DNA of 64,000 bases, taken from contig JAUWIJ010000001.1 in the NCBI GenBank assembly GCA_030605415.1, forward strand, positions 568 to 64,567, written 5' to 3'. Origin of the DNA: an archaeon. Its GTDB lineage: Archaea; Nanobdellota; Nanobdellia; Pacearchaeales; GW2011-AR1. The translations under genes were made by a program, and so were the position numbers. Below, piece after piece: positions 1-43,665 of the stretch. The stretch's first letter is position 1, and every line of letters begins with the position of its first letter. The notes under the pieces were generated by a model. That model made no database searches, was not told where the DNA came from, and saw only the letters and a list, made by a program, of their open reading frames with translations.

Positions 1-437
1 GAGCGGATGTTACTGATAATTGCTGAGGGTTGGTTGAAGGTCAAGGAAATTAAAAAAGAGCCCCTGCAGAGTTCAAGCCCTCGTCAAAAACGTTGCTCGG
101 CTTAACCCGTTAGTGCTTTTTTGATTGTTGGTACACTCTGCTCAGGCAATAAGCTAAATAATTTATCCTTTTTAAATTTATTTTTTATCTATTCTCCAGT
201 CTTTTGAGGGTTTATTGTTTATATTTACTATTGGAACACAATATTTAGTCTCCTCTCATTAACTTACGTTGATCTTATTAATGGATATGATTATACAGTA
301 ACAGAAACATTCTGGGGAACTGATGATAACGAAAATGCTGTTCAGGCAAGTTATAGTTTTAGCGTGACAGCTTGAGGAAAATGATTGAGGAAAATAAAAA
401 ATTAAAAGAGGCTCCAAAAGGGAGCCATAAAAATTAT

Positions 438-617
438 TTACATACTATAGCATGGCCCTTCCCCATGACAGGGTTGATGGCAAACACAATCACATCTGTC
501 ACAGCTTGCATCATATACATCAGCTTTTAAACCATTTCGTGCTCCTGTAAGAATTTTTGCATCTCCTAACGATTCTAAAACATTACTATCTATACATTCC
601 ATTTTTTCTAAATTCAT
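438..617 (-). CDS. Unannotated 59-aa Cys-rich peptide (MNLEKMECIDSNVLESLGDAKILTGARNGLKADVYDASCDRCDCVCHQPCHGEGPCYSM); candidate RiPP precursor
   Basis: Hand translation of minus strand. ATG at 617-615 is preceded by GGAGGT 5 nt upstream; stop at 440-438. Six Cys lie in the C-terminal 20 aa. Immediately downstream of the radical-SAM/HExxH genes on the same strand. Below the ORF-track size cutoff. Confidence 0.45.
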   Translation of the reverse strand: MNLEKMECIDSNVLESLGDAKILTGARNGLKADVYDASCDRCDCVCHQPCHGEGPCYSM

Positions 618-1275
618 TTTTTATACCTCCTTTTAAGTTGATTAGTTCGTTTATATTTCTTTCAAAATGCTGTACAAATATTTTATTTATTTCAACTTCT
701 TCCATTTGTCCATCAACATTTTTTAAAAACCTAATTATTTTATCCGCTCCAGATTCTCCGAAGTGCTCCATAATTGAACAAATTATTAAATGTCCAACTC
801 CATAATTATATTCTGGGGCACCTCCTTTTAATGAAGAAATATTAAAGTTAATTTTATTACTACAATTTTTATTACGATGATATTGAGCAATGCCCTCGTT
901 AAATAAGGACAAGTCAGCTATCTTAGAATAACCATAAAATAAATGGGATAACTCATGTGCAAAAGTTCCAAGCATACTCTCCTGTTTATGAATAGTAAAT
1001 TTTTCAATAACTGAAGGCGAAAAGATGTTAATTGTTGTGTGATATCCAACCATTGCACACATCCAATTTTGTTTAAATTCTTTCCCTGTAAAAAACAAAA
1101 ATTCTTCAGGAGAATAAATAAAACAAATTCTAATTGTTGGCAAATCTTTATCAAATGAATAAAATTTTTTTATCTCCTGATATTTCTCTTCGAGTTTATC
1201 AAAATCAAAATTTTCTAAATAGTCTTTATCTATTTCTTTATATCTTATTAAAAATCTTCCTTTTCGTATTATCAT
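586..1275 (-). CDS. HExxH-motif protein (putative Zn metallopeptidase-like)
   Basis: 229-aa ORF with HELSH motif in 'GTFAHELSHLFYGYS'. Overlaps the rSAM stop by 4 nt, suggesting an operon. Confidence 0.4.
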   Translation of the reverse strand: MIIRKGRFLIRYKEIDKDYLENFDFDKLEEKYQEIKKFYSFDKDLPTIRICFIYSPEEFLFFTGKEFKQNWMCAMVGYHTTINIFSPSVIEKFTIHKQESMLGTFAHELSHLFYGYSKIADLSLFNEGIAQYHRNKNCSNKINFNISSLKGGAPEYNYGVGHLIICSIMEHFGESGADKIIRFLKNVDGQMEEVEINKIFVQHFERNINELINLKGGIKNEFRKNGMYR

Positions 1276-2552
1276 TCTACTAAAAATCCTCCAGCTTTCA
1301 AAATTTTTCCAAATTCCTCTGCCTTCTCTCTATATTGTTTTGGAAAATTATTCAATTTAAATCCTTTTGGTCGTATACCTTCAACAAACTTTTTCATTGA
1401 TTCGTTTACTAATAATGTACCCCCATTATATAACAAATATTCCTCCTCTTTTTCTTTTCTCGTTCCATACAAATTAACTTTATAATTAATATTTTCGTCA
1501 ACAGAAGGTAATATTTCTGTTACTACCATTTTCTCTAATTTGCCAACCATTCTTGAATCTTTTTTATTTAATTCTTCTCCTTCTTTTAGTCCCTCATATC
1601 TGCATCCACCCAAGCAAGACTTTACTTCTACACATTCTTTACAATCATCTGGAACATATACATTTTTTCTAAAAACATTTAATCTATTCCAGATATTTTT
1701 AAATGGTTCTGTAAAAACATTTCCCTCTGTAAATGGAGAATGTCCACATGCTCTTATGTCACCATTATATGCAATCTGAATTGAACTTCTTCCTGCACTG
1801 CAACTTCTTCTAAAAGTTTTATCTTTTCTTAGGTCTTCAGGTAAAGCACAATATGGAATTACTTCTAAAGCATTTATTTTAATATTAAAATCACTTCTTA
1901 ATTTTACTAAATCTCTTAAAGTAGATACCATTTCATCATTATTCAAATGATAATTTGAGTCTCCTCTGAATGCTGGTCTCAATGCTGGCGTTACTGCAAT
2001 TTTTTTAATACCATAATTTTCTACAAGAAATTTTCCTTGTTCATACACAGAATCTTTATTGATTTTATGAACAACCATATTAATCGTTGGATTAAAACCT
2101 TCTTTAACTAAATTCTCTAAATTCTCCAAAACTTTATTCAACGTATTTATTCCAGTTATTTGTTTAAATTTTTCATTTTGGAAGTATGGTAAAGATACTA
2201 AAAAGCCCATATCTGGATTTACATTTTTCAATTGTGATAATTTGTTTTTATTTAATAAAGATAAATTTGTATTCATACTGCAAGGCGCATTCTTCTTGTA
2301 TAATTGTTTAGCAATTTCTAATGATGCTGGCATATTCATCAAGGGTTCTCCGCCTGTTATCACTGTATCAAAAGGTTTTATTTGACTAAAAAAGATATCC
2401 ATTAATTTTTTTGCTGATTCATTAGACATTTTTTTACTTACAGAATTATTTTCTCTCCAATAATTGTAACAGTAGAAGCATTTATGATTACAATCTTCTG
2501 TAACTTCAATTTGTGCATTTAAAGGATATCTCAATCCAACATTTTCTTCCAT
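1272..2552 (-). CDS. Radical SAM / SPASM-domain peptide-modifying enzyme
   Basis: N-terminal CNHKCFYC (Cx3Cx2C) radical-SAM motif. C-terminal Cys-rich SPASM-like region (CSAGRSS...CGHSPF...CKECVEVKSCLGGCRYEG). Confidence 0.8.
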   Translation of the reverse strand: MEENVGLRYPLNAQIEVTEDCNHKCFYCYNYWRENNSVSKKMSNESAKKLMDIFFSQIKPFDTVITGGEPLMNMPASLEIAKQLYKKNAPCSMNTNLSLLNKNKLSQLKNVNPDMGFLVSLPYFQNEKFKQITGINTLNKVLENLENLVKEGFNPTINMVVHKINKDSVYEQGKFLVENYGIKKIAVTPALRPAFRGDSNYHLNNDEMVSTLRDLVKLRSDFNIKINALEVIPYCALPEDLRKDKTFRRSCSAGRSSIQIAYNGDIRACGHSPFTEGNVFTEPFKNIWNRLNVFRKNVYVPDDCKECVEVKSCLGGCRYEGLKEGEELNKKDSRMVGKLEKMVVTEILPSVDENINYKVNLYGTRKEKEEEYLLYNGGTLLVNESMKKFVEGIRPKGFKLNNFPKQYREKAEEFGKILKAGGFLVE

Positions 2553-2813
2553 TTCGATTTCTCCAGAAACAGTCTGAAGTGCCGACCACCTCTGAATATA
2601 TACCGAGATTAAAGTTTATAAGTTTTATTGCGACTAAGTTTTTGTGTAATTCAATGGAAATGATAAATTAATCCATACAGATAAAAAATTCTCTACACTT
2701 CATGATTGGGAAAAATTTACTCTTAAGTACTGGGGCACCGATGATAATGAGAATTCTGTTTATATAGAGCAGACAGTGTGCGTAGAAAAAGGAACTTTTT
2801 TGTTTGATGTTGG

Positions 2814-3263
2814 TTGTTGAAATGGGAAATAAAAGATTTTATAAACATTATTACTTATGAAATATATATGAAAAAACCAATAATTGATTGTATTGCATTT
2901 CTTCTCATTAAGGGCAACAAAATTCTTTTAGAAAAACGCAAACTAACAAAAAAAGTAGATCCGGGAAAAATTTGTATACCAAGTGGAGGAACAGAAAAAG
3001 GAGAAACTCCAGAGGAGGCTACACTTAGAGAGATAAAAGAAGAATTTGATATTGAAGGAAAGAATCCAAAATTTATTGCAAAAATTATTTATCCTACTGA
3101 AAAAATTAATTTTTTAGTTAGTTATTATGTAATTAAAGAATGGGAAGGTAAAATACAAAATCTTGAAGCCGATAGATTAGAGTGGGTTGAGATAAGTAAA
3201 GACAATGTGGATACATGGATAGATAAAATTGCCATTGATATTTATAAAAATGTTAAATCATAA
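2814..3263 (+). CDS. NUDIX hydrolase (likely true start ATG 2868)
   Basis: Nudix box GGTEKGETPEEATLREIKEEFDI. The in-frame ATG at 2868 gives MKKPIIDCIAF. Confidence 0.75.
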   Translation: MLKWEIKDFINIITYEIYMKKPIIDCIAFLLIKGNKILLEKRKLTKKVDPGKICIPSGGTEKGETPEEATLREIKEEFDIEGKNPKFIAKIIYPTEKINFLVSYYVIKEWEGKIQNLEADRLEWVEISKDNVDTWIDKIAIDIYKNVKS

Positions 3264-3332
3264 TTCTTTCGATAAAAACAATTCACCTTTTCAAGAATAA
3301 TATTAAGCTTTCTTATAAGATAAGCCAATATC

Positions 3333-3959
3333 TTAAAAAAATTCCTCAAAACTCTTTTTTACTTCCTTAAAACTCTTCTCCTTAATATCAAAAATCCTAT
3401 CCTCTCTCTTATTCAAGGTTTCCATCATCTCAATAAATTCCTTTTCTTCAAATATCTCTATCCCCATTTTCTTGCAAACCTTTTTTATTTCCATGATAGA
3501 TTCTTCAACACTTTCTTCATCGGAAATTAATTTTTCTGCTTCAAAATAACAAATATCTCCAGAACGAACTAATGCAAATTCAATGTTTTCCAGCTTGAAT
3601 AAAAAAGTCTTAGTGTCCATTAGAACACCCCTAAACCAACCCAGATGCTTAAAGAATTCCAAAGCCGAACCAAATTTATCTAAATCTATCGGGAACAGAA
3701 ATTCCTTCCTCGCTTCTTCAGCGCCCCAGCGACCATACTTCATAACAATTTCCGCCTCCTTATTAGTCACTCGTAATTTCAAGTCTACCGGATCTTCCCT
3801 AACCGCATTCAAGTCATTAACATCAGAATCTTCTCTAAAATAAATAAAAGAAATTCTGTCTTTCTCTTCCACAAAAATAGCCTCTCGCCTAAATTTCTCT
3901 AAAAGCTCCTCAAAATTTTTTATTCCGCCCCTAACCTCTACTTCTATTTGCTTCGTCAT
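3333..3959 (-). CDS. CYTH-domain (triphosphate tunnel metalloenzyme / CyaB-like) protein
   Basis: N-terminal IEVEVRG (ExExK-like) motif. Size is typical of the CYTH family. Confidence 0.5.
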   Translation of the reverse strand: MTKQIEVEVRGGIKNFEELLEKFRREAIFVEEKDRISFIYFREDSDVNDLNAVREDPVDLKLRVTNKEAEIVMKYGRWGAEEARKEFLFPIDLDKFGSALEFFKHLGWFRGVLMDTKTFLFKLENIEFALVRSGDICYFEAEKLISDEESVEESIMEIKKVCKKMGIEIFEEKEFIEMMETLNKREDRIFDIKEKSFKEVKKSFEEFF

Positions 3960-4015
3960 AAATAACTTAGAAAAGACGGACTTTTATACCTTTTCAAAAC
4001 AATGTTTATGTTTCT

Positions 4016-4513
4016 TCATTTTATCCCAAAAACTTCCTTAGCTTTCCCTAATTGAAACTCTCCGTTGTCATCCCATTTTACAAATTTTAAAAAATCCTTT
4101 GGATCTATGAATTTTCTTAAGGGGATAGCTCCTTCTGCAGGATCCACAGTTTGCTTTTTTATTTTATCAACCTCGGCAACAAATCTAAGAATGTGATGGA
4201 TGCAATTTCTCTTGCAATTATCACCAAGGGGTGTAATTTTAAAACAGCCAACGCGTCTAATGTTTTTAATATCTAAATCAGCCTCCTCGTTAACTTCTCT
4301 AATTAAGGTGTCCTCAAAACTCTTATCGCAATCCTCGGGACCACCTCCGGGCAAACACCAGTATCCTTTATTACAATCAACTATGCAAAGCTTACCATTC
4401 TCGTCAAAAATAAAACCGTATGACTGAATCACATTTTCCAAACTTTCAAAATTGATATTATCGAGCCATTTCATCAAATATTTCTGTCCCTTCCATTCAA
4501 TTTCGGATATCAT
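4016..4513 (-). CDS. NUDIX hydrolase
   Basis: Nudix box GGGPEDCDKSFEDTLIREVNEEADL. Confidence 0.75.
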   Translation of the reverse strand: MISEIEWKGQKYLMKWLDNINFESLENVIQSYGFIFDENGKLCIVDCNKGYWCLPGGGPEDCDKSFEDTLIREVNEEADLDIKNIRRVGCFKITPLGDNCKRNCIHHILRFVAEVDKIKKQTVDPAEGAIPLRKFIDPKDFLKFVKWDDNGEFQLGKAKEVFGIK

Positions 4514-4597
4514 TAAACCATTATTACTTTAAGCACTAAATAAAATTAACTATTAATATCAAGCATAAAATGTTAAATCATAACAGCAATAGCTAAA

Positions 4598-5050
4598 TTA
4601 TTCATCCTTCCTCCTATAATCTTTAATTTCAAGCTTCTGAAAATATTTCTCCCTATTCATTCCCTTTTTCAAAACTTCCCTTAACAATTTCTTATCACCA
4701 CCCCACTTAATCCTCTCAATAAAATCCTCAAGCTCAAGCCACTCATATTTACTATGTTCCTCATTTAAAATAACGTCTGACAAATCAACAAAAGAAATAA
4801 AATTATATTCCTCACAAATATCCTCTTCCCAATTATAAATAGAACTCCAATTCAAAAAAACGGTCTCTCTTACAACTAGACCCGTTTCCTCCATAACTTC
4901 TCTTGTGACAACTGTCTCGTGAGACTCGCTATCTTCAACACCACCAGTTACAACAAACCAGTCGCCCTTTCCGTGCTCCGGATGCGGTTCGCTATACAAA
5001 GCCAACATCTTTTCATCCCTAATAATAAATGTTAAAATCTTTTCTTGCAT
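4598..5050 (-). CDS. NUDIX hydrolase
   Basis: Nudix box GGVEDSESHETVVTREVMEETGL. Confidence 0.75.
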   Translation of the reverse strand: MQEKILTFIIRDEKMLALYSEPHPEHGKGDWFVVTGGVEDSESHETVVTREVMEETGLVVRETVFLNWSSIYNWEEDICEEYNFISFVDLSDVILNEEHSKYEWLELEDFIERIKWGGDKKLLREVLKKGMNREKYFQKLEIKDYRRKDE

Positions 5051-5241
5051 CTCACACTAAAGATTTCTTAATTTTTAAGCTCTTCTAAAATGAGTGTTAC
5101 AGTATATAAAAAGAATTTATCAAAAGAATCAAATCAAAAATATTATTTAATATTAAACTTTTCAGAATTTTTAACACCACTTTTCTGTTATTACTAAAAA
5201 ATGCAAACACTTATAAATGTTAAATATTTTAAAATTCCAAC

Positions 5242-6309
5242 ATGAGTAAAAATATTAATATTGCACTTGTTGGTATAGGAAATGTTGCCAGTGCCCTTAT
5301 TCAAGGAATAGAGTATTACAAATTAAACCCCTCTGAGAAATTAGGGATTCTTCCGGAAATAACTCAATATGATGTTGAAGATTTTAATTTTTCCCTTGGA
5401 ATTGATGTTAATAAAGAAAAAGTGGATAAAGATTTAAGCGAGGCTATTTTCATCAAACCCAATTGCGCGGAATTTCTTCATAAACCCAAATGTTTGGATG
5501 CGAGAGTAATTGGAGGATCCATTTTAGATGGACTTGATAGTGATATAAAAAATTATATTCCAGTTGATGAATCATTCGAGAAGACAGATATCCAGACAGA
5601 ATTAATTAATAATAAAATTGATGTAGTCGTTATTCTTTTACCTACAGGTTCACAAAAGGCTGCGGAATTTTATACTAAAGAAGCAATATCTGCAGGATGC
5701 GCAGTTGTAAATGGGATGCCTGCTTTACTTGCAAACAATAAAGAAATAGTCTCCCTTGCGGAGCAGAAAAATATTCCTTTAATTGGAGATGATGTAAAAT
5801 CTCAAATAGGTGCAACAATTATTCATAGAAGTCTATCTAATCTTTTTCCAATGAGAGGGGCGATTATGGATCGCACTATTCAATTAGACTGGGGTGGAGA
5901 TATGGATTTTTGTAATCTTTTAAGCAATGGTAGATACGAACAAGGAAAAAGGCAATCCAAAACAGGGTCAGTGATAGATCATTTGCCGAATAAAAATTCT
6001 GTGGATGTGCAGATTAGTGCTGTAGACTATATCCCTTTTCTGAAAAATCAAAAAGAAGCATATACAAGAATTGAAGGTAGAATTTTTGGAGGCAAAAATG
6101 TAAGAATTGATGTTACTATGCAGGTTCAAGATGGATATAATTCTGCTGGAATTGTGGCAGATATGATTCGGGTCGCTAAAATTGCAAAAGATAAGAATCT
6201 TGGCGGAGTTATTCATCCAGCATGCTCTTTTTTTAATAAAAAACCCCCTATTCAGACAGAAGACGACACTGCAAAAAAAGAGCTTCTAAATTTATTAAGC
6301 GATAAATAA
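5242..6309 (+). CDS. myo-inositol-1-phosphate synthase (archaeal type)
   Basis: N-terminal Rossmann IALVGIGNVASA. Central 'NGMPALLANNKE...IPLIGDDVKSQIGATIIHRSL' and GGDMDF blocks resemble archaeal MIPS. A TATA-like ttataaat lies ~30 nt upstream. Confidence 0.7.
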   Translation: MSKNINIALVGIGNVASALIQGIEYYKLNPSEKLGILPEITQYDVEDFNFSLGIDVNKEKVDKDLSEAIFIKPNCAEFLHKPKCLDARVIGGSILDGLDSDIKNYIPVDESFEKTDIQTELINNKIDVVVILLPTGSQKAAEFYTKEAISAGCAVVNGMPALLANNKEIVSLAEQKNIPLIGDDVKSQIGATIIHRSLSNLFPMRGAIMDRTIQLDWGGDMDFCNLLSNGRYEQGKRQSKTGSVIDHLPNKNSVDVQISAVDYIPFLKNQKEAYTRIEGRIFGGKNVRIDVTMQVQDGYNSAGIVADMIRVAKIAKDKNLGGVIHPACSFFNKKPPIQTEDDTAKKELLNLLSDK

Positions 6310-6310
6310 A

Positions 6311-7750
6311 ATGATAATTAATTCTACTCTTCATAAAGAGAGAAGGGATGCTAGGATTAAAGCTATGAATCCTCAAATATCTTATTCTGGATTTGATTTA
6401 ATGAGTGATATTTCTCAGATGGCAGAAAGAGCAATTAAAAAATCATATAAGGTTTTAGAAAAAAATTTATTTGAAGAAAAATCTCCTTCTATAGCAATAT
6501 TTTTATATGGCTCTGGAGGAAGAGGGGAAATGACAAATTATTCTGATATAGATATACATTTTATTTCCGCGATAGATGATCCTCAAGCATCAGTTTTTCA
6601 AGAAAAATTACACAAGGAATTAGCTAGTTATCAATTTGGAAAAATTGATGATCCTAATTGGAAAAATATGAAATCTGTCGAGAAATATGCTGCAAGAAGT
6701 ATCACTGAAGCCAATCAAATTTTTGATGCAAAATTGGTAGCAGGAGATAAAGGATTAGCTAAGGAATTAACGAGAATTATAGAAAAATATGATACCCAGG
6801 AAAGAAAAATAAGAAATATGTTATTTCAAAAATTTTATTTAGAGCATTATTATGGTGCGAGGAGTAATGTCGAAGTTCCAAATGTAAAATATTGTTCGGG
6901 TGGATATAGAGATCTTTTAACTTTTGATTGGTTTTCTAATTGGATATCATCTACTAAGGGACTTCCTTCTGATATTATAGGAAAAATGCCTCAGATACAA
7001 TATTCTTTAAAGGATATAGGAGCCAAAGGTATTATTACGAACAAAAAAGAACGTTTAGCTCTAGATTCTGCGGAATTTATGGTTTTATTTAGAAATGAAG
7101 TTCTTCATTCTAATATTGGAACTAAAGATGAAGGAATTACTCATTTGGATATTCCTACTATGGAACGAACCTTTTCTTCATCTCCTGAATATTTTTGTTC
7201 TCTTGGTGTTTTTTCTCCGAATCAACTACTGCCTTTATTTAATGAACATGCCAAGGTTATCAAAAATACTAAGAAAAAAATTTTGGATTATATAATTTCA
7301 GTTGAAGGAAAAAATAGAGGGGGGAAATGGCTAAGGGACTATAAGGATTCTCTCGCAATAAATATCTCAAATCAAAGAAGAAAAGAAATTGCGAAACAAG
7401 ATGATGTTATAACCAAGCTTAGTTCTATTTGGGGAATGAATTATAATGCGGACACAGAATTGTTTAATGAGGTTTGTGGGCAAATGATTGGAACGACTCA
7501 ATGGGAAGCGTTAGCCTCGATGGCATGTAGCCCAAAGAGTTCTCCAGAATTATTGAGCGAGATAGCTAAAACTAGCATGAGTCATGAAGGTTTGGGTTAT
7601 ATTCTTAGGATACTCGGAAGGAATCCCTCTACTTCTAAAGGTACCTTAGAAGATATTGCTGGTAATTCTTCATTGGATAAAAGATATAGAATAGTTGCAA
7701 AATTGAATTTGGAAAAAGGTTTATATATTGCGACGACGAGATCTTCTTAA
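6311..7750 (+). CDS. GlnD/DUF294-like nucleotidyltransferase-domain protein
   Basis: Pol-beta NTase signature LYGSGGRGEMTNYSDIDIHF. Followed by a helical substrate-binding-like region. Confidence 0.5.
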   Translation: MIINSTLHKERRDARIKAMNPQISYSGFDLMSDISQMAERAIKKSYKVLEKNLFEEKSPSIAIFLYGSGGRGEMTNYSDIDIHFISAIDDPQASVFQEKLHKELASYQFGKIDDPNWKNMKSVEKYAARSITEANQIFDAKLVAGDKGLAKELTRIIEKYDTQERKIRNMLFQKFYLEHYYGARSNVEVPNVKYCSGGYRDLLTFDWFSNWISSTKGLPSDIIGKMPQIQYSLKDIGAKGIITNKKERLALDSAEFMVLFRNEVLHSNIGTKDEGITHLDIPTMERTFSSSPEYFCSLGVFSPNQLLPLFNEHAKVIKNTKKKILDYIISVEGKNRGGKWLRDYKDSLAINISNQRRKEIAKQDDVITKLSSIWGMNYNADTELFNEVCGQMIGTTQWEALASMACSPKSSPELLSEIAKTSMSHEGLGYILRILGRNPSTSKGTLEDIAGNSSLDKRYRIVAKLNLEKGLYIATTRSS

Positions 7751-7780
7751 TGGAGTTGAAGATATTATCAAGATTGGGAA
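7676..7780. repeat. ~105-bp direct repeat (copy A) duplicated at 8624-8757, flanking the GNAT+ASCH module
   Basis: ga.aaaagatatagaatagttgcaaaatt.aatttggaaaaaggtttatatattgc.acgacgagatcttcttaat …atattatcaagattgggaa. 3 mismatches in the first 75 bp. Copy B has a 23-bp indel. Confidence 0.85.
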
Positions 7781-7799
7781 GTGAGGAGGTTGAAGTATT

Positions 7800-8243
7800 T
7801 TGGTGATTCGTAAAGTTGAACAAAAAGACAGAAAATTGCTGGAAGAAATGGCTACTAAATATCTTGAGCCATTATATGGCAATCAGGATAAAGCTGTTGA
7901 GAGTTGGATGAATGGAAAAAGAATTGTTTATATAAGTTCGGATGAAAATAATGATGTGAAGGGACTTGTTGCACTTTTAGATAATCTTGATAAGGATTAT
8001 ATAACGATGTCTACATTGTTAATTGATGAAAATTTTCGACATAAGGGGGCTGGTAAAGGATTACTTGAAAAGGCTATTGAATATTCAAGTGGAACTCAAA
8101 ATGATTATTTAATAGTGACTGTTAATGAAAATATTAATAGTACTTTTAACTTGTTAAAAAAATATGGCTTTGAGGTTATAGATAAATTGAAAAATAAGCA
8201 TATTATTGGACAAACTGAGTTTGTACTTAGGAGGGATTTGTGA
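7800..8243 (+). CDS. GNAT family N-acetyltransferase
   Basis: Acetyl-CoA binding motif RHKGAGKGLLEKAIEY. Confidence 0.7.
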   Translation: MVIRKVEQKDRKLLEEMATKYLEPLYGNQDKAVESWMNGKRIVYISSDENNDVKGLVALLDNLDKDYITMSTLLIDENFRHKGAGKGLLEKAIEYSSGTQNDYLIVTVNENINSTFNLLKKYGFEVIDKLKNKHIIGQTEFVLRRDL

Positions 8244-43562: not shown

Positions 43563-43665
43563 GCTTTCGTAGCTCAGCAGGTAGAGCGCACGGCTGTTAC
43601 ATGGGTTTGCTTTGGTAGATTTTGCAGAGACCGTGATGTCGGAGGTTCGAGTCCTCCCGAAAGCG
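43563..43665 (+). tRNA. tRNA-Asn(GUU) with ~30-nt intron in the anticodon loop
   Basis: Hand fold. Acceptor GCTTTCG/CGAAAGC. D arm GCTC-AGCAGGTA-GAGC. Anticodon stem CACGG/CCGTG with loop CTGTTA + intron (43600-43629) + A. T arm GGAGG-TTCGAGT-CCTCC. Discriminator G. No encoded CCA. Confidence 0.75.

What the first reader, a model, noticed from the sequence alone, without database searches (positions are those of the whole stretch)
438..2552. Candidate archaeal RiPP cluster: radical-SAM/SPASM enzyme + HExxH protein + unannotated 59-aa Cys-rich peptide
Three co-directional genes on the minus strand overlap by a few nt. They encode (i) a Cx3Cx2C radical-SAM enzyme with a C-terminal SPASM-like Cys cluster, (ii) a 229-aa HELSH-motif protein (possible leader peptidase) and (iii) a hand-found 59-aa ORF (617-438) with an SD-like GGAGGT. 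The core 'SCDRCDCVCHQPCHGEGPC' has 6 Cys in 18 residues, which is the composition of SCIFF/ranthipeptide-type precursors. The peptide is below the ORF-track cutoff and easy to miss. Such rSAM-RiPP loci are little documented in DPANN-like archaea. The whole cluster is bracketed by coding-like direct repeats (see next finding), suggesting acquisition as a cassette.
Basis: partly seen in the sequence, partly recalled or inferred. Interest (0 to 1): 0.8.

Follow-up and report, generated by a model that had tools for sequence, protein, structure and literature searches.

The report
Archaeal radical-SAM modified-peptide gene cassette
This is a real, conserved three-gene cassette in tiny symbiotic (DPANN) archaea: a radical-SAM enzyme, a zinc protease and a short cysteine/aspartate-rich peptide that they almost certainly modify and trim. 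It belongs to a large family of modified-peptide systems that no searched database or paper describes.

Summary
Three co-directional minus-strand genes encode a radical-SAM/SPASM enzyme (1272-2552), an HExxH protein (586-1275) and a 59-aa peptide with six Cys (438-617).

The peptide gene is real. It has a conserved GGAGGT ribosome-binding site, dN/dS of 0.06-0.15, and an almost frozen core (pN 0.018 against pS 0.84).

The trio recurs in DPANN archaea. Of 25 related loci with enough flanking DNA, 21 have the peptide, 23 the protease and 20 both. Only 15 of 2990 control small ORFs meet the same peptide criterion. The three genes co-diverge, and one contig carries two paralogous cassettes.

The HExxH protein folds as a gluzincin metalloprotease. 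The enzyme's nearest solved structures are mostly peptide maturases (SuiB, CteB, TigE, PqqE, SkfB), plus the protein-modifying anSME. It reaches no curated family cutoff, including anSME, AhbD/NirJ, PapB and SCIFF.

Cores across the wider family are 31% Cys and 22% Asp, and 47% of Cys are followed by Asp. This suggests PapB-like Cys-Asp thioether cross-links, but the chemistry is untested.

Two claims fail. No direct repeats bracket the cluster, and the peptide is already a nameless called gene in public collections.

Verdict: a genuine, uncharacterised RiPP cassette, a new member of a known kind.

The parts
1272..2552 (-). Radical-SAM/SPASM peptide maturase, 426 aa
2469..2492 (-). CX3CX2C radical-SAM [4Fe-4S] motif (C21, C25, C28)
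   Evidence: Invariant in the 19-sequence alignment A1. It starts at residue 21, so there is no N-terminal RRE domain.
1602..1850 (-). SPASM auxiliary-cluster region with seven invariant Cys (C235, C251, C269, C304, C307, C313, C317)
   Evidence: Invariant columns in A1. The pattern C251-x12-G264-x4-C269 ... C304-x2-C307-x5-C313-x3-C317 fits the SPASM motif. No Cys follows C317.
1293..1484 (-). C-terminal beta-sheet plus helices domain (residues 357-420), candidate leader-recognition (RRE-like) domain
   Evidence: The AF2 model shows strands 357-359, 363-368, 371-375 and 379-383, then helices 384-393 and 405-420, with block mean pLDDT of about 90-94 from residue 351. Sequence tests against PqqD and the TigE N-terminus align in register but are not significant.
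586..1275 (-). Stand-alone gluzincin-type zinc metallopeptidase, 229 aa, probable leader peptidase
943..957 (-). HELSH zinc-binding/catalytic motif (residues 107-111); third ligand E127 at 895-897
   Evidence: Read directly from the sequence. Invariant in A2.
438..617 (-). Precursor peptide gene, 59 aa: leader residues 1-37 (507-617), core residues 38-59 (441-506), stop 438-440
   Evidence: Homologue P0122 is 78% identical. A conserved family lies downstream of the peptidase gene. dN/dS is 0.06-0.15, with core pN 0.018 against pS 0.84. Leader motif is [VI]LE[SN]Lx2A[KE][IF]L and core is CDxCDC[VI]C[NH]QPC[HD]G..PCY.
625..630 (-). Shine-Dalgarno GGAGGT for the precursor gene, embedded in the peptidase's conserved C-terminal LKGG codons
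   Evidence: GAAAGGAGGT lies 6-8 nt upstream of the ATG in most loci where the peptide follows the peptidase.
410..426 (-). Terminator-like hairpin GGCTCC-CTTTT-GGAGCC followed by a T-rich run, 12 nt after the precursor stop codon
   Evidence: It is the only terminator-like site in 1-3000. The count alone equals the chance expectation (mean 1.0), so only the position is suggestive.

Best explanation
This is a self-contained three-gene RiPP (ribosomally synthesised, post-translationally modified peptide) operon of a DPANN archaeon. The 59-aa product is a precursor. It has an N-terminal leader with a conserved amphipathic motif (VLESLGDAKIL) and a C-terminal core of about 22 residues (SCDRCDCVCHQPCHGEGPCYSM). 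The radical-SAM/SPASM enzyme probably docks the leader on its C-terminal sheet-plus-helix domain (inferred). It cleaves SAM at the CX3CX2C cluster and uses the resulting 5'-deoxyadenosyl radical to abstract a hydrogen from an acceptor residue in the core. It then joins a Cys sulfur to that carbon. The most likely products are several intramolecular thioether cross-links. A PapB-like Cys-S to Asp-C-beta (ranthipeptide-type) link is the leading guess, because Cys-Asp is the dominant conserved dipeptide. Seven rather than eight SPASM cysteines would leave one auxiliary-cluster iron free to bind a substrate thiolate, which is also inferred. The small gluzincin protease then removes the leader. Shown here: the gene trio, its conservation and co-divergence, purifying selection on the peptide, and the fold and family assignments. 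Inferred: the leader-binding site, the cross-link chemistry, the cleavage event and the biological role of the product.
For: rSAM/SPASM identity rests. The nearest solved structures are mostly RiPP maturases, plus the protein-modifying anSME. Gluzincin identity of the HExxH protein rests. The trio is conserved in Woese-, Pace- and Nanoarchaeota MAGs and in metagenomes. Census: 21, 23 and 20 of 25 close loci have the peptide, the peptidase and both, against 15 of 2990 control ORFs. dN/dS is 0.06-0.15, with the core frozen. Co-divergence of pairwise identities: Spearman 0.85 for rSAM against peptidase and 0.52 for rSAM against peptide. The two cassettes on L104 each resemble orthologues elsewhere more than each other. 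The SD is conserved and the genes overlap, consistent with translational coupling. Across 55 family peptides the cores are 30.7% Cys and 21.7% Asp, and 47% of Cys are followed by Asp. PapB forms Cys-Asp/Glu thioethers in Cys-Xn-Asp with n = 0-6 and needs Cys N-terminal to Asp (PMC9413430). PapB is the second-best NCBIfam hit.
Against: There are no chemical or expression data. PapB and SCIFF model scores (77.5 and 48.3 bits) are far below their cutoffs (340 and 425), and NirJ2 scores slightly higher (85.6), so sequence gives no specific chemistry. The RRE assignment is not significant at sequence level. No transporter or immunity gene is conserved beside the trio, and flanks differ between loci. 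A Cys/Asp/His-rich peptide could instead act mainly as a metal ligand.
Confidence: 0.75

Rival explanations
1. It is the same RiPP cassette, but the enzyme makes sactionine (Cys-S to C-alpha) links or a different radical modification. Candidates are epimerisation, C-C cross-links, or anSME-like oxidation of Cys to formylglycine or thioaldehyde, rather than Cys-Asp C-beta thioethers.
Against: The very strong co-conservation of Cys with an adjacent Asp (47% CD dipeptides, 22% Asp) is most simply explained if Asp is the partner residue, as in PapB. Sactisynthases such as AlbA, StsB and the SCIFF maturase align only from about profile position 100, so this enzyme lacks their N-terminal domain.
Confidence: 0.2
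2. The mature peptide is chiefly a metal-binding or redox peptide, such as a metallothionein-like, metallophore-like or cofactor-precursor molecule in the manner of PQQ, mycofactocin or the bufferins. The rSAM and protease tailor it for that role rather than making an antagonistic or signalling natural product.
For: The core is rich in Cys, Asp and His. No exporter or immunity gene is conserved nearby. The architecture of rSAM/SPASM plus peptidase plus small peptide resembles the PQQ and mycofactocin systems; MftC and PqqE are among the weak hits. Cys-containing RiPPs that chelate copper exist, for example the bufferins (PMC12452194 abstract).
Against: Core length and Cys number vary widely between clades, from 4 to about 10 Cys, with 1-3 tandem precursors in some loci. 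This is atypical of a cofactor with a fixed structure. Paralogous cassettes with different cores coexist on one contig. This rival concerns the role of the product and is compatible with thioether chemistry.
Confidence: 0.2
3. The small ORF is a chance or non-functional ORF, and the rSAM acts on a non-peptide substrate, for example a haem or siroheme intermediate like AhbD/NirJ or a lipid like the tetraether synthase.
Against: All those scores are 5-10 fold below their cutoffs. The peptide ORF is conserved with a strong SD and dN/dS of about 0.1. It co-diverges with the enzyme. It is found in 21 of 25 close loci against 0.5% of control ORFs.
Confidence: 0.03

Closest known systems
PapB/PapA (freyrasin) ranthipeptide system, NCBIfam NF047865
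   Same: Both pair an rSAM/SPASM maturase with a precursor whose core repeats Cys and Asp. PapB links Cys-S to Asp/Glu C-beta in Cys-Xn-Asp with n = 0-6. PapB is the second-best NCBIfam hit.
   Different: The score is 77.5 bits against a cutoff of 340. The precursor is unrelated in sequence. The dominant motif here is CD/CDxCDC rather than six CX3D. A dedicated gluzincin gene and a C-terminal extra domain are present. The host is archaeal (DPANN).
SCIFF / CteB (six-Cys-in-forty-five ranthipeptide, TIGR03973/TIGR03974)
   Same: Both have a short precursor with six Cys clustered at the C-terminus and a SPASM maturase. CteB is the best sequence match among solved structures (75 bits) and a top structural neighbour. 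As I recall from the literature, not checked here, SCIFF loci also lack an adjacent transporter.
   Different: TIGR03974 scores 48.3 bits against 425, and the precursor hits no model. CteB has an N-terminal RRE of about 100 aa, since the alignment starts at CteB residue 101. Here the extra domain is C-terminal, and a protease gene is part of the operon.
Sactipeptide synthases (AlbA, SkfB, StsB)
   Same: They share the rSAM/SPASM fold and Cys-containing precursors.
   Different: Scores are 47-55 bits against cutoffs of 625-850. The N-terminal RRE is absent. The acceptor residues and core composition differ.
MA-clan gluzincin peptidases (M9 collagenase, M1 aminopeptidase, M4 thermolysin catalytic domains)
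   Different: This is a minimal 220-230 aa stand-alone domain. It matches no Pfam family above threshold. The spacing is HExxH-x15-E. It is genetically tied to an rSAM and a precursor peptide.

Membership tests
Radical SAM superfamily | CX3CX2C cluster motif and a PF04055 match above gathering score | tested here: met
   C21/C25/C28 are invariant. PF04055 scores 70.2 bits against 29.5.
SPASM subfamily | PF13186 match and the C-x9-15-G-x4-C ... C-x2-C-x5-C-x3-C motif for auxiliary [4Fe-4S] clusters | tested here: met
   PF13186 scores 29.6 bits against 21.5. C251..G264-x4-C269 and C304/C307/C313/C317 are invariant, as is upstream C235. No Cys follows C317.
RiPP biosynthetic cluster (general) | A short precursor gene with conserved leader and core lies next to the modifying enzyme, and the linkage is conserved across taxa | tested here: met
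SCIFF system (TIGR03974 maturase / TIGR03973 precursor) | Scores above the curated cutoffs | tested here: not met
   The maturase scores 48.3 bits against 425. The precursor has no hit.
PapB family ranthipeptide maturase (NF047865) | Score above the curated cutoff of 340 bits | tested here: not met
   77.5 bits.
PapB family ranthipeptide maturase (NF047865) | Precursor with repeated Cys-X3-Asp/Glu motifs | tested here: inconclusive
   The window core has one CX3D (C39-D43) and two CD dipeptides. Family-wide, 47% of Cys are followed by Asp. PapB accepts n = 0-6 in vitro.
Ranthipeptide class (chemical definition) | Thioether from Cys sulfur to a non-alpha carbon | not testable with these tools
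   Needs MS/MS and NMR of the modified peptide.
Sactipeptide synthases (AlbA NF012164, StsB NF045574) | Score above cutoff and an N-terminal RRE domain | tested here: not met
   Scores are 46.9 against 850 and 54.7 against 625. Alignments start at profile positions 101 (StsB) and 111 (AlbA), while this protein's cluster motif starts at residue 21.
Anaerobic sulfatase maturase (TIGR03942) | Score above the cutoff of 349 bits | tested here: not met
   50.1 bits.
AhbD / NirJ haem-pathway rSAMs (TIGR04545, TIGR04055) | Score above the cutoff of 500 bits | tested here: not met
   68.8 and 85.6 bits.
RRE / PqqD-like leader-recognition domain (PF05402) | Winged-helix fold of three strands then three helices, and sequence similarity to PqqD or known RREs | tested here: inconclusive
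   The topology is compatible. There is no Pfam, NCBIfam or PDB sequence hit. hhalign against K. pneumoniae PqqD gives probability 0.2%, and against the TigE N-terminal segment E 0.023 and probability 2%; both align in register but are not significant.
Gluzincin metallopeptidases (clan MA) | HExxH plus a downstream Glu zinc ligand on a thermolysin-like fold | tested here: met

The most novel reading that the evidence does not exclude
The cassette is the DPANN branch of a large, unnamed superfamily of 'Cys-Asp repeat' RiPPs spread through uncultured, small-genome lineages. In this reading its maturase installs a cross-link pattern not yet described, for example a ladder of adjacent Cys-Asp thioethers or a metal-templated cage. 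The product would serve the symbiont-host lifestyle of these archaea, through signalling, adhesion, antagonism or metal capture, rather than being an ordinary bacteriocin.
Probability: 0.25. Interest if true: 0.8.

Novelty: new member of a known kind. Interest (0 to 1): 0.6.

Why it matters
In the literature searched here, RiPP clusters of DPANN archaea appear only as counts in antiSMASH-type surveys (PMC12144867), and I found no characterised product. These organisms have tiny genomes, yet they keep this trio. One contig carries two complete paralogous copies, and two loci (the same sequence recovered twice) show a second peptidase-precursor pair just upstream, which implies a selected function. 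The cassette is compact (2.1 kb, three genes), has a clear precursor and is ready for heterologous expression. The conserved Cys-Asp grammar gives a specific, testable chemical hypothesis, namely PapB-like thioethers. PapB is already used to make peptide macrocycles, so a new thioether maturase could be useful in the same way.

Tried and rejected
1. Direct repeats bracketing the cluster. Only weak AT-rich matches occur in 1-8000. GC content of the cluster (0.28) is like that of its surroundings. Rejected.

2. Sequence evidence for an RRE in the C-terminal domain. I tried Pfam, NCBIfam and a PDB profile search. I also ran hhalign against a PqqD sequence that I recalled and then verified by Pfam, and against the TigE N-terminal segment. 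All alignments were in register but none was significant.

3. Structure search against afdb50 was unavailable.

4. Anti-phage defence identity. PADLOC gives only generic similarity of the rSAM core to viperins. Rejected.

5. Functional link to the neighbouring NUDIX genes. A similar NUDIX lies next to a relative in only 3-4 of about 100 loci. Probably coincidental.

6. phmmer of the 59-aa peptide against 1.84 billion representatives. It returned three small relatives and three large Cys-rich proteins that look spurious. The peptide family therefore has to be found by genomic context rather than by sequence.

7. Rfam and tRNA scans of 1-8000 found nothing.

8. Literature searches for this family in DPANN or CPR organisms found survey-level mentions only.
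Full report
**1. What is in the sequence**

Three co-directional minus-strand ORFs lie at the stated coordinates. They are 1272-2552 (426 aa), 586-1275 (229 aa) and 438-617 (59 aa).

- The first two genes overlap by 4 nt (ATGA). The last two overlap by 32 nt.
- A GGAGGT sits at 625-630, 7 nt upstream of the peptide ATG.
- A GC-rich hairpin with a T-run lies at 426-410, 12 nt after the peptide stop.
- The peptide is MNLEKMECIDSNVLESLGDAKILTGARNGLKADVYDASCDRCDCVCHQPCHGEGPCYSM, with six Cys in the last 21 residues.

Two side statements are not.

- The exact peptide is already a called but nameless protein in public collections.
- No meaningful direct repeats flank the cluster. The neighbours are three diverged NUDIX paralogues, all on one side, and a myo-inositol-1-phosphate synthase. 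GC content is uniform across the region.

**2. The enzyme**

The 426-aa protein passes the Pfam thresholds for Radical_SAM, Fer4_12 and SPASM.

In a 19-sequence alignment spanning 31-85% identity, the invariant cysteines are C21/C25/C28 (CX3CX2C) and seven SPASM-region Cys: C235, C251, C269, C304, C307, C313 and C317. No Cys follows C317.

It reaches no curated NCBIfam cutoff:

| Model | Score (bits) | Cutoff (bits) |
|---|---|---|
| NirJ2 | 85.6 | 500 |
| PapB | 77.5 | 340 |
| AhbD | 68.8 | 500 |
| anSME | 50.1 | 349 |
| SCIFF maturase | 48.3 | 425 |
| AlbA | 46.9 | 850 |

The AF2 model is confident (pLDDT 87.4).

- Foldseek agrees.
- CteB is the best sequence match among solved structures.

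The cluster motif begins at residue 21, so the N-terminal RRE of CteB, SuiB and AlbA is absent. Residues 357-420 instead form a confident four-strand sheet followed by helices. That topology is compatible with a winged-helix RRE.

Sequence tests of this idea were in register but not significant. I treat the RRE assignment as an inference.

**3. The HExxH protein**

No Pfam or NCBIfam family matches it.

- Homologues are DPANN 'hypothetical proteins', and one carries PF04450.
- H107, E108, H111 and E127 are invariant across 17 sequences.
- The model has pLDDT 91.

It is a minimal stand-alone gluzincin and is presumably catalytically competent.

**4. Is the small ORF a gene, and is the trio a unit?**

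Genome and metagenome scans returned 100 related loci. The named ones are Woesearchaeota, Pacearchaeota and Nanoarchaeota MAGs.

In the close clade (rSAM identity 38% or more) the usual order is rSAM, then peptidase, then a short Cys-rich ORF. Some loci have the peptide first, and one lacks the peptidase.

| rSAM identity to window | Loci with enough flank | With Cys/Asp-rich peptide | With peptidase homologue | With both |
|---|---|---|---|---|
| 38% or more | 25 | 21 | 23 | 20 |
| Below 38% | 61 | 38 | 14 | 14 |

Only 15 of 2990 control small ORFs in the same loci meet the peptide criterion. Some loci are the same sequence recovered from two collections, so these counts are not fully independent.

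The peptides align into a family. The leader motif is [VI]LE[SN]Lx2A[KE][IF]L, and the core in the window's clade is CDxCDC[VI]C[NH]QPC[HD]G..PCY.

Several lines show that the peptide gene is functional and tied to its neighbours.

- dN/dS is 0.06-0.15. For the window against its closest relative, the core has pS 0.84 and pN 0.018.
- The SD GAAAGGAGGT is conserved upstream of the peptide and lies inside the peptidase's conserved C-terminal LKGG codons.
- Pairwise identities of the three proteins are correlated: Spearman 0.85 for rSAM against peptidase and 0.52 for rSAM against peptide.
- One 30.8-kb contig carries two complete cassettes. Each is closer to orthologues in other genomes than to the other cassette, and each has its own precursor type.
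- Another locus pair, L025 and L004, shows a second peptidase-precursor pair just upstream of the cassette.
- Flanking genes differ between loci, for example Ham1, Fic and type-IV-pilus-like genes. The conserved unit is exactly the three genes.

**5. Mechanism**

The established logic of rSAM/SPASM RiPP maturases suggests the following sequence. The enzyme recognises the leader, SAM cleavage yields a 5'-deoxyadenosyl radical, the radical abstracts a hydrogen in the core, and a bond forms. The leader is then removed by proteolysis.

The specific clue here is core composition. Across 55 family peptides the cores are 30.7% Cys and 21.7% Asp, and 47% of Cys are immediately followed by Asp.

PapB is the one characterised enzyme that joins Cys sulfur to Asp or Glu C-beta. 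It accepts Cys-Xn-Asp with n = 0-6 and requires Cys to be N-terminal to Asp (PMC9413430).

I therefore favour multiple Cys-Asp thioethers. My estimates are about 0.35 for that exact chemistry and about 0.55 for thioethers of any kind.

Seven rather than eight SPASM Cys would leave one open or non-Cys-ligated iron. As I recall from the CteB literature, not checked here, such a site binds the substrate thiolate in that enzyme. This too is inference.

No exporter or immunity gene is linked to the trio. The product's role is therefore open: signalling, antagonism or metal binding.

**6. Comparison and novelty**

The cassette works like a ranthipeptide or SCIFF-type system. It is not a member of the SCIFF, PapB, sactisynthase, anSME or AhbD/NirJ families by their curated models.

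- Neither the peptide nor the peptidase has any curated family.
- Literature searches found only survey-level counts of predicted ranthipeptide and sactipeptide clusters in DPANN (PMC12144867). Nothing on this family turned up.

It is thus a new, uncharacterised member of a known kind, the rSAM/SPASM-modified Cys-rich RiPPs. Its distinctive features are a CD-repeat core, a dedicated gluzincin, a C-terminal accessory domain and a DPANN host.

**7. Verdict**

Confidence that this is a genuine RiPP cassette is about 0.75-0.85. The chemistry is unresolved. Interest is 0.6.

Noticed in passing
window 43563-43665 (+): Rfam finds a 103-nt tRNA (59.5 bits) that ARAGORN in bacterial mode misses. It is probably an intron-containing archaeal tRNA, which fits an archaeal origin for the window.
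   Followed up: no
window 2814-3263 (+), 4016-4513 (-), 4598-5050 (-): Three diverged NUDIX hydrolase paralogues (25-37% identical) cluster just upstream of the cassette. A 55%-identical NUDIX sits directly upstream of a distant rSAM relative in L042/L043, but this pairing occurs in only 3-4 of about 100 loci.
   Followed up: partly
window 621-632 (-) and equivalent positions in L001-L027: The peptidase's conserved C-terminal 'LKGG' is encoded by ...AAAGGAGGT..., which doubles as the Shine-Dalgarno sequence of the precursor gene. These codons may therefore be constrained both as protein and as ribosome-binding site.
   Followed up: partly
L104:345-2509 and L104:4919-7055: One 30.8-kb contig carries two complete paralogous cassettes 2.4 kb apart (starts 4.6 kb apart), each with a different precursor type. 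They lie next to a T2SSE/T2SSF (type IV pilus or archaellum-like) gene cluster. L025 and L004 (the same sequence) also show a second peptidase-precursor pair just upstream of the cassette.
   Followed up: partly
L041:2100-2665; L051:1630-2850; L042:2793-3269: Distant rSAM relatives (about 30% identity) are followed by two or three tandem precursor genes with extremely Cys/Asp-rich cores, for example NCYSCDGSCDSCNDCDCDACNCDSCDNSCDYR. This points to a much larger 'CD-repeat' RiPP superfamily with no NCBIfam model.
   Followed up: partly
L014:2245-3758: In a Peribacteria (CPR bacterium) MAG, a related rSAM is followed by a 72-aa ORF ending in TMCCTCDSN. It is preceded by a P-loop protein that also ends in LKGGKL, so the family may extend into CPR bacteria.
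   Followed up: no
window 3333-3959 (-): A 208-aa ORF lies between the NUDIX genes and is co-directional with the cassette. It has no Pfam or PADLOC match, and its function is unknown.
   Followed up: no
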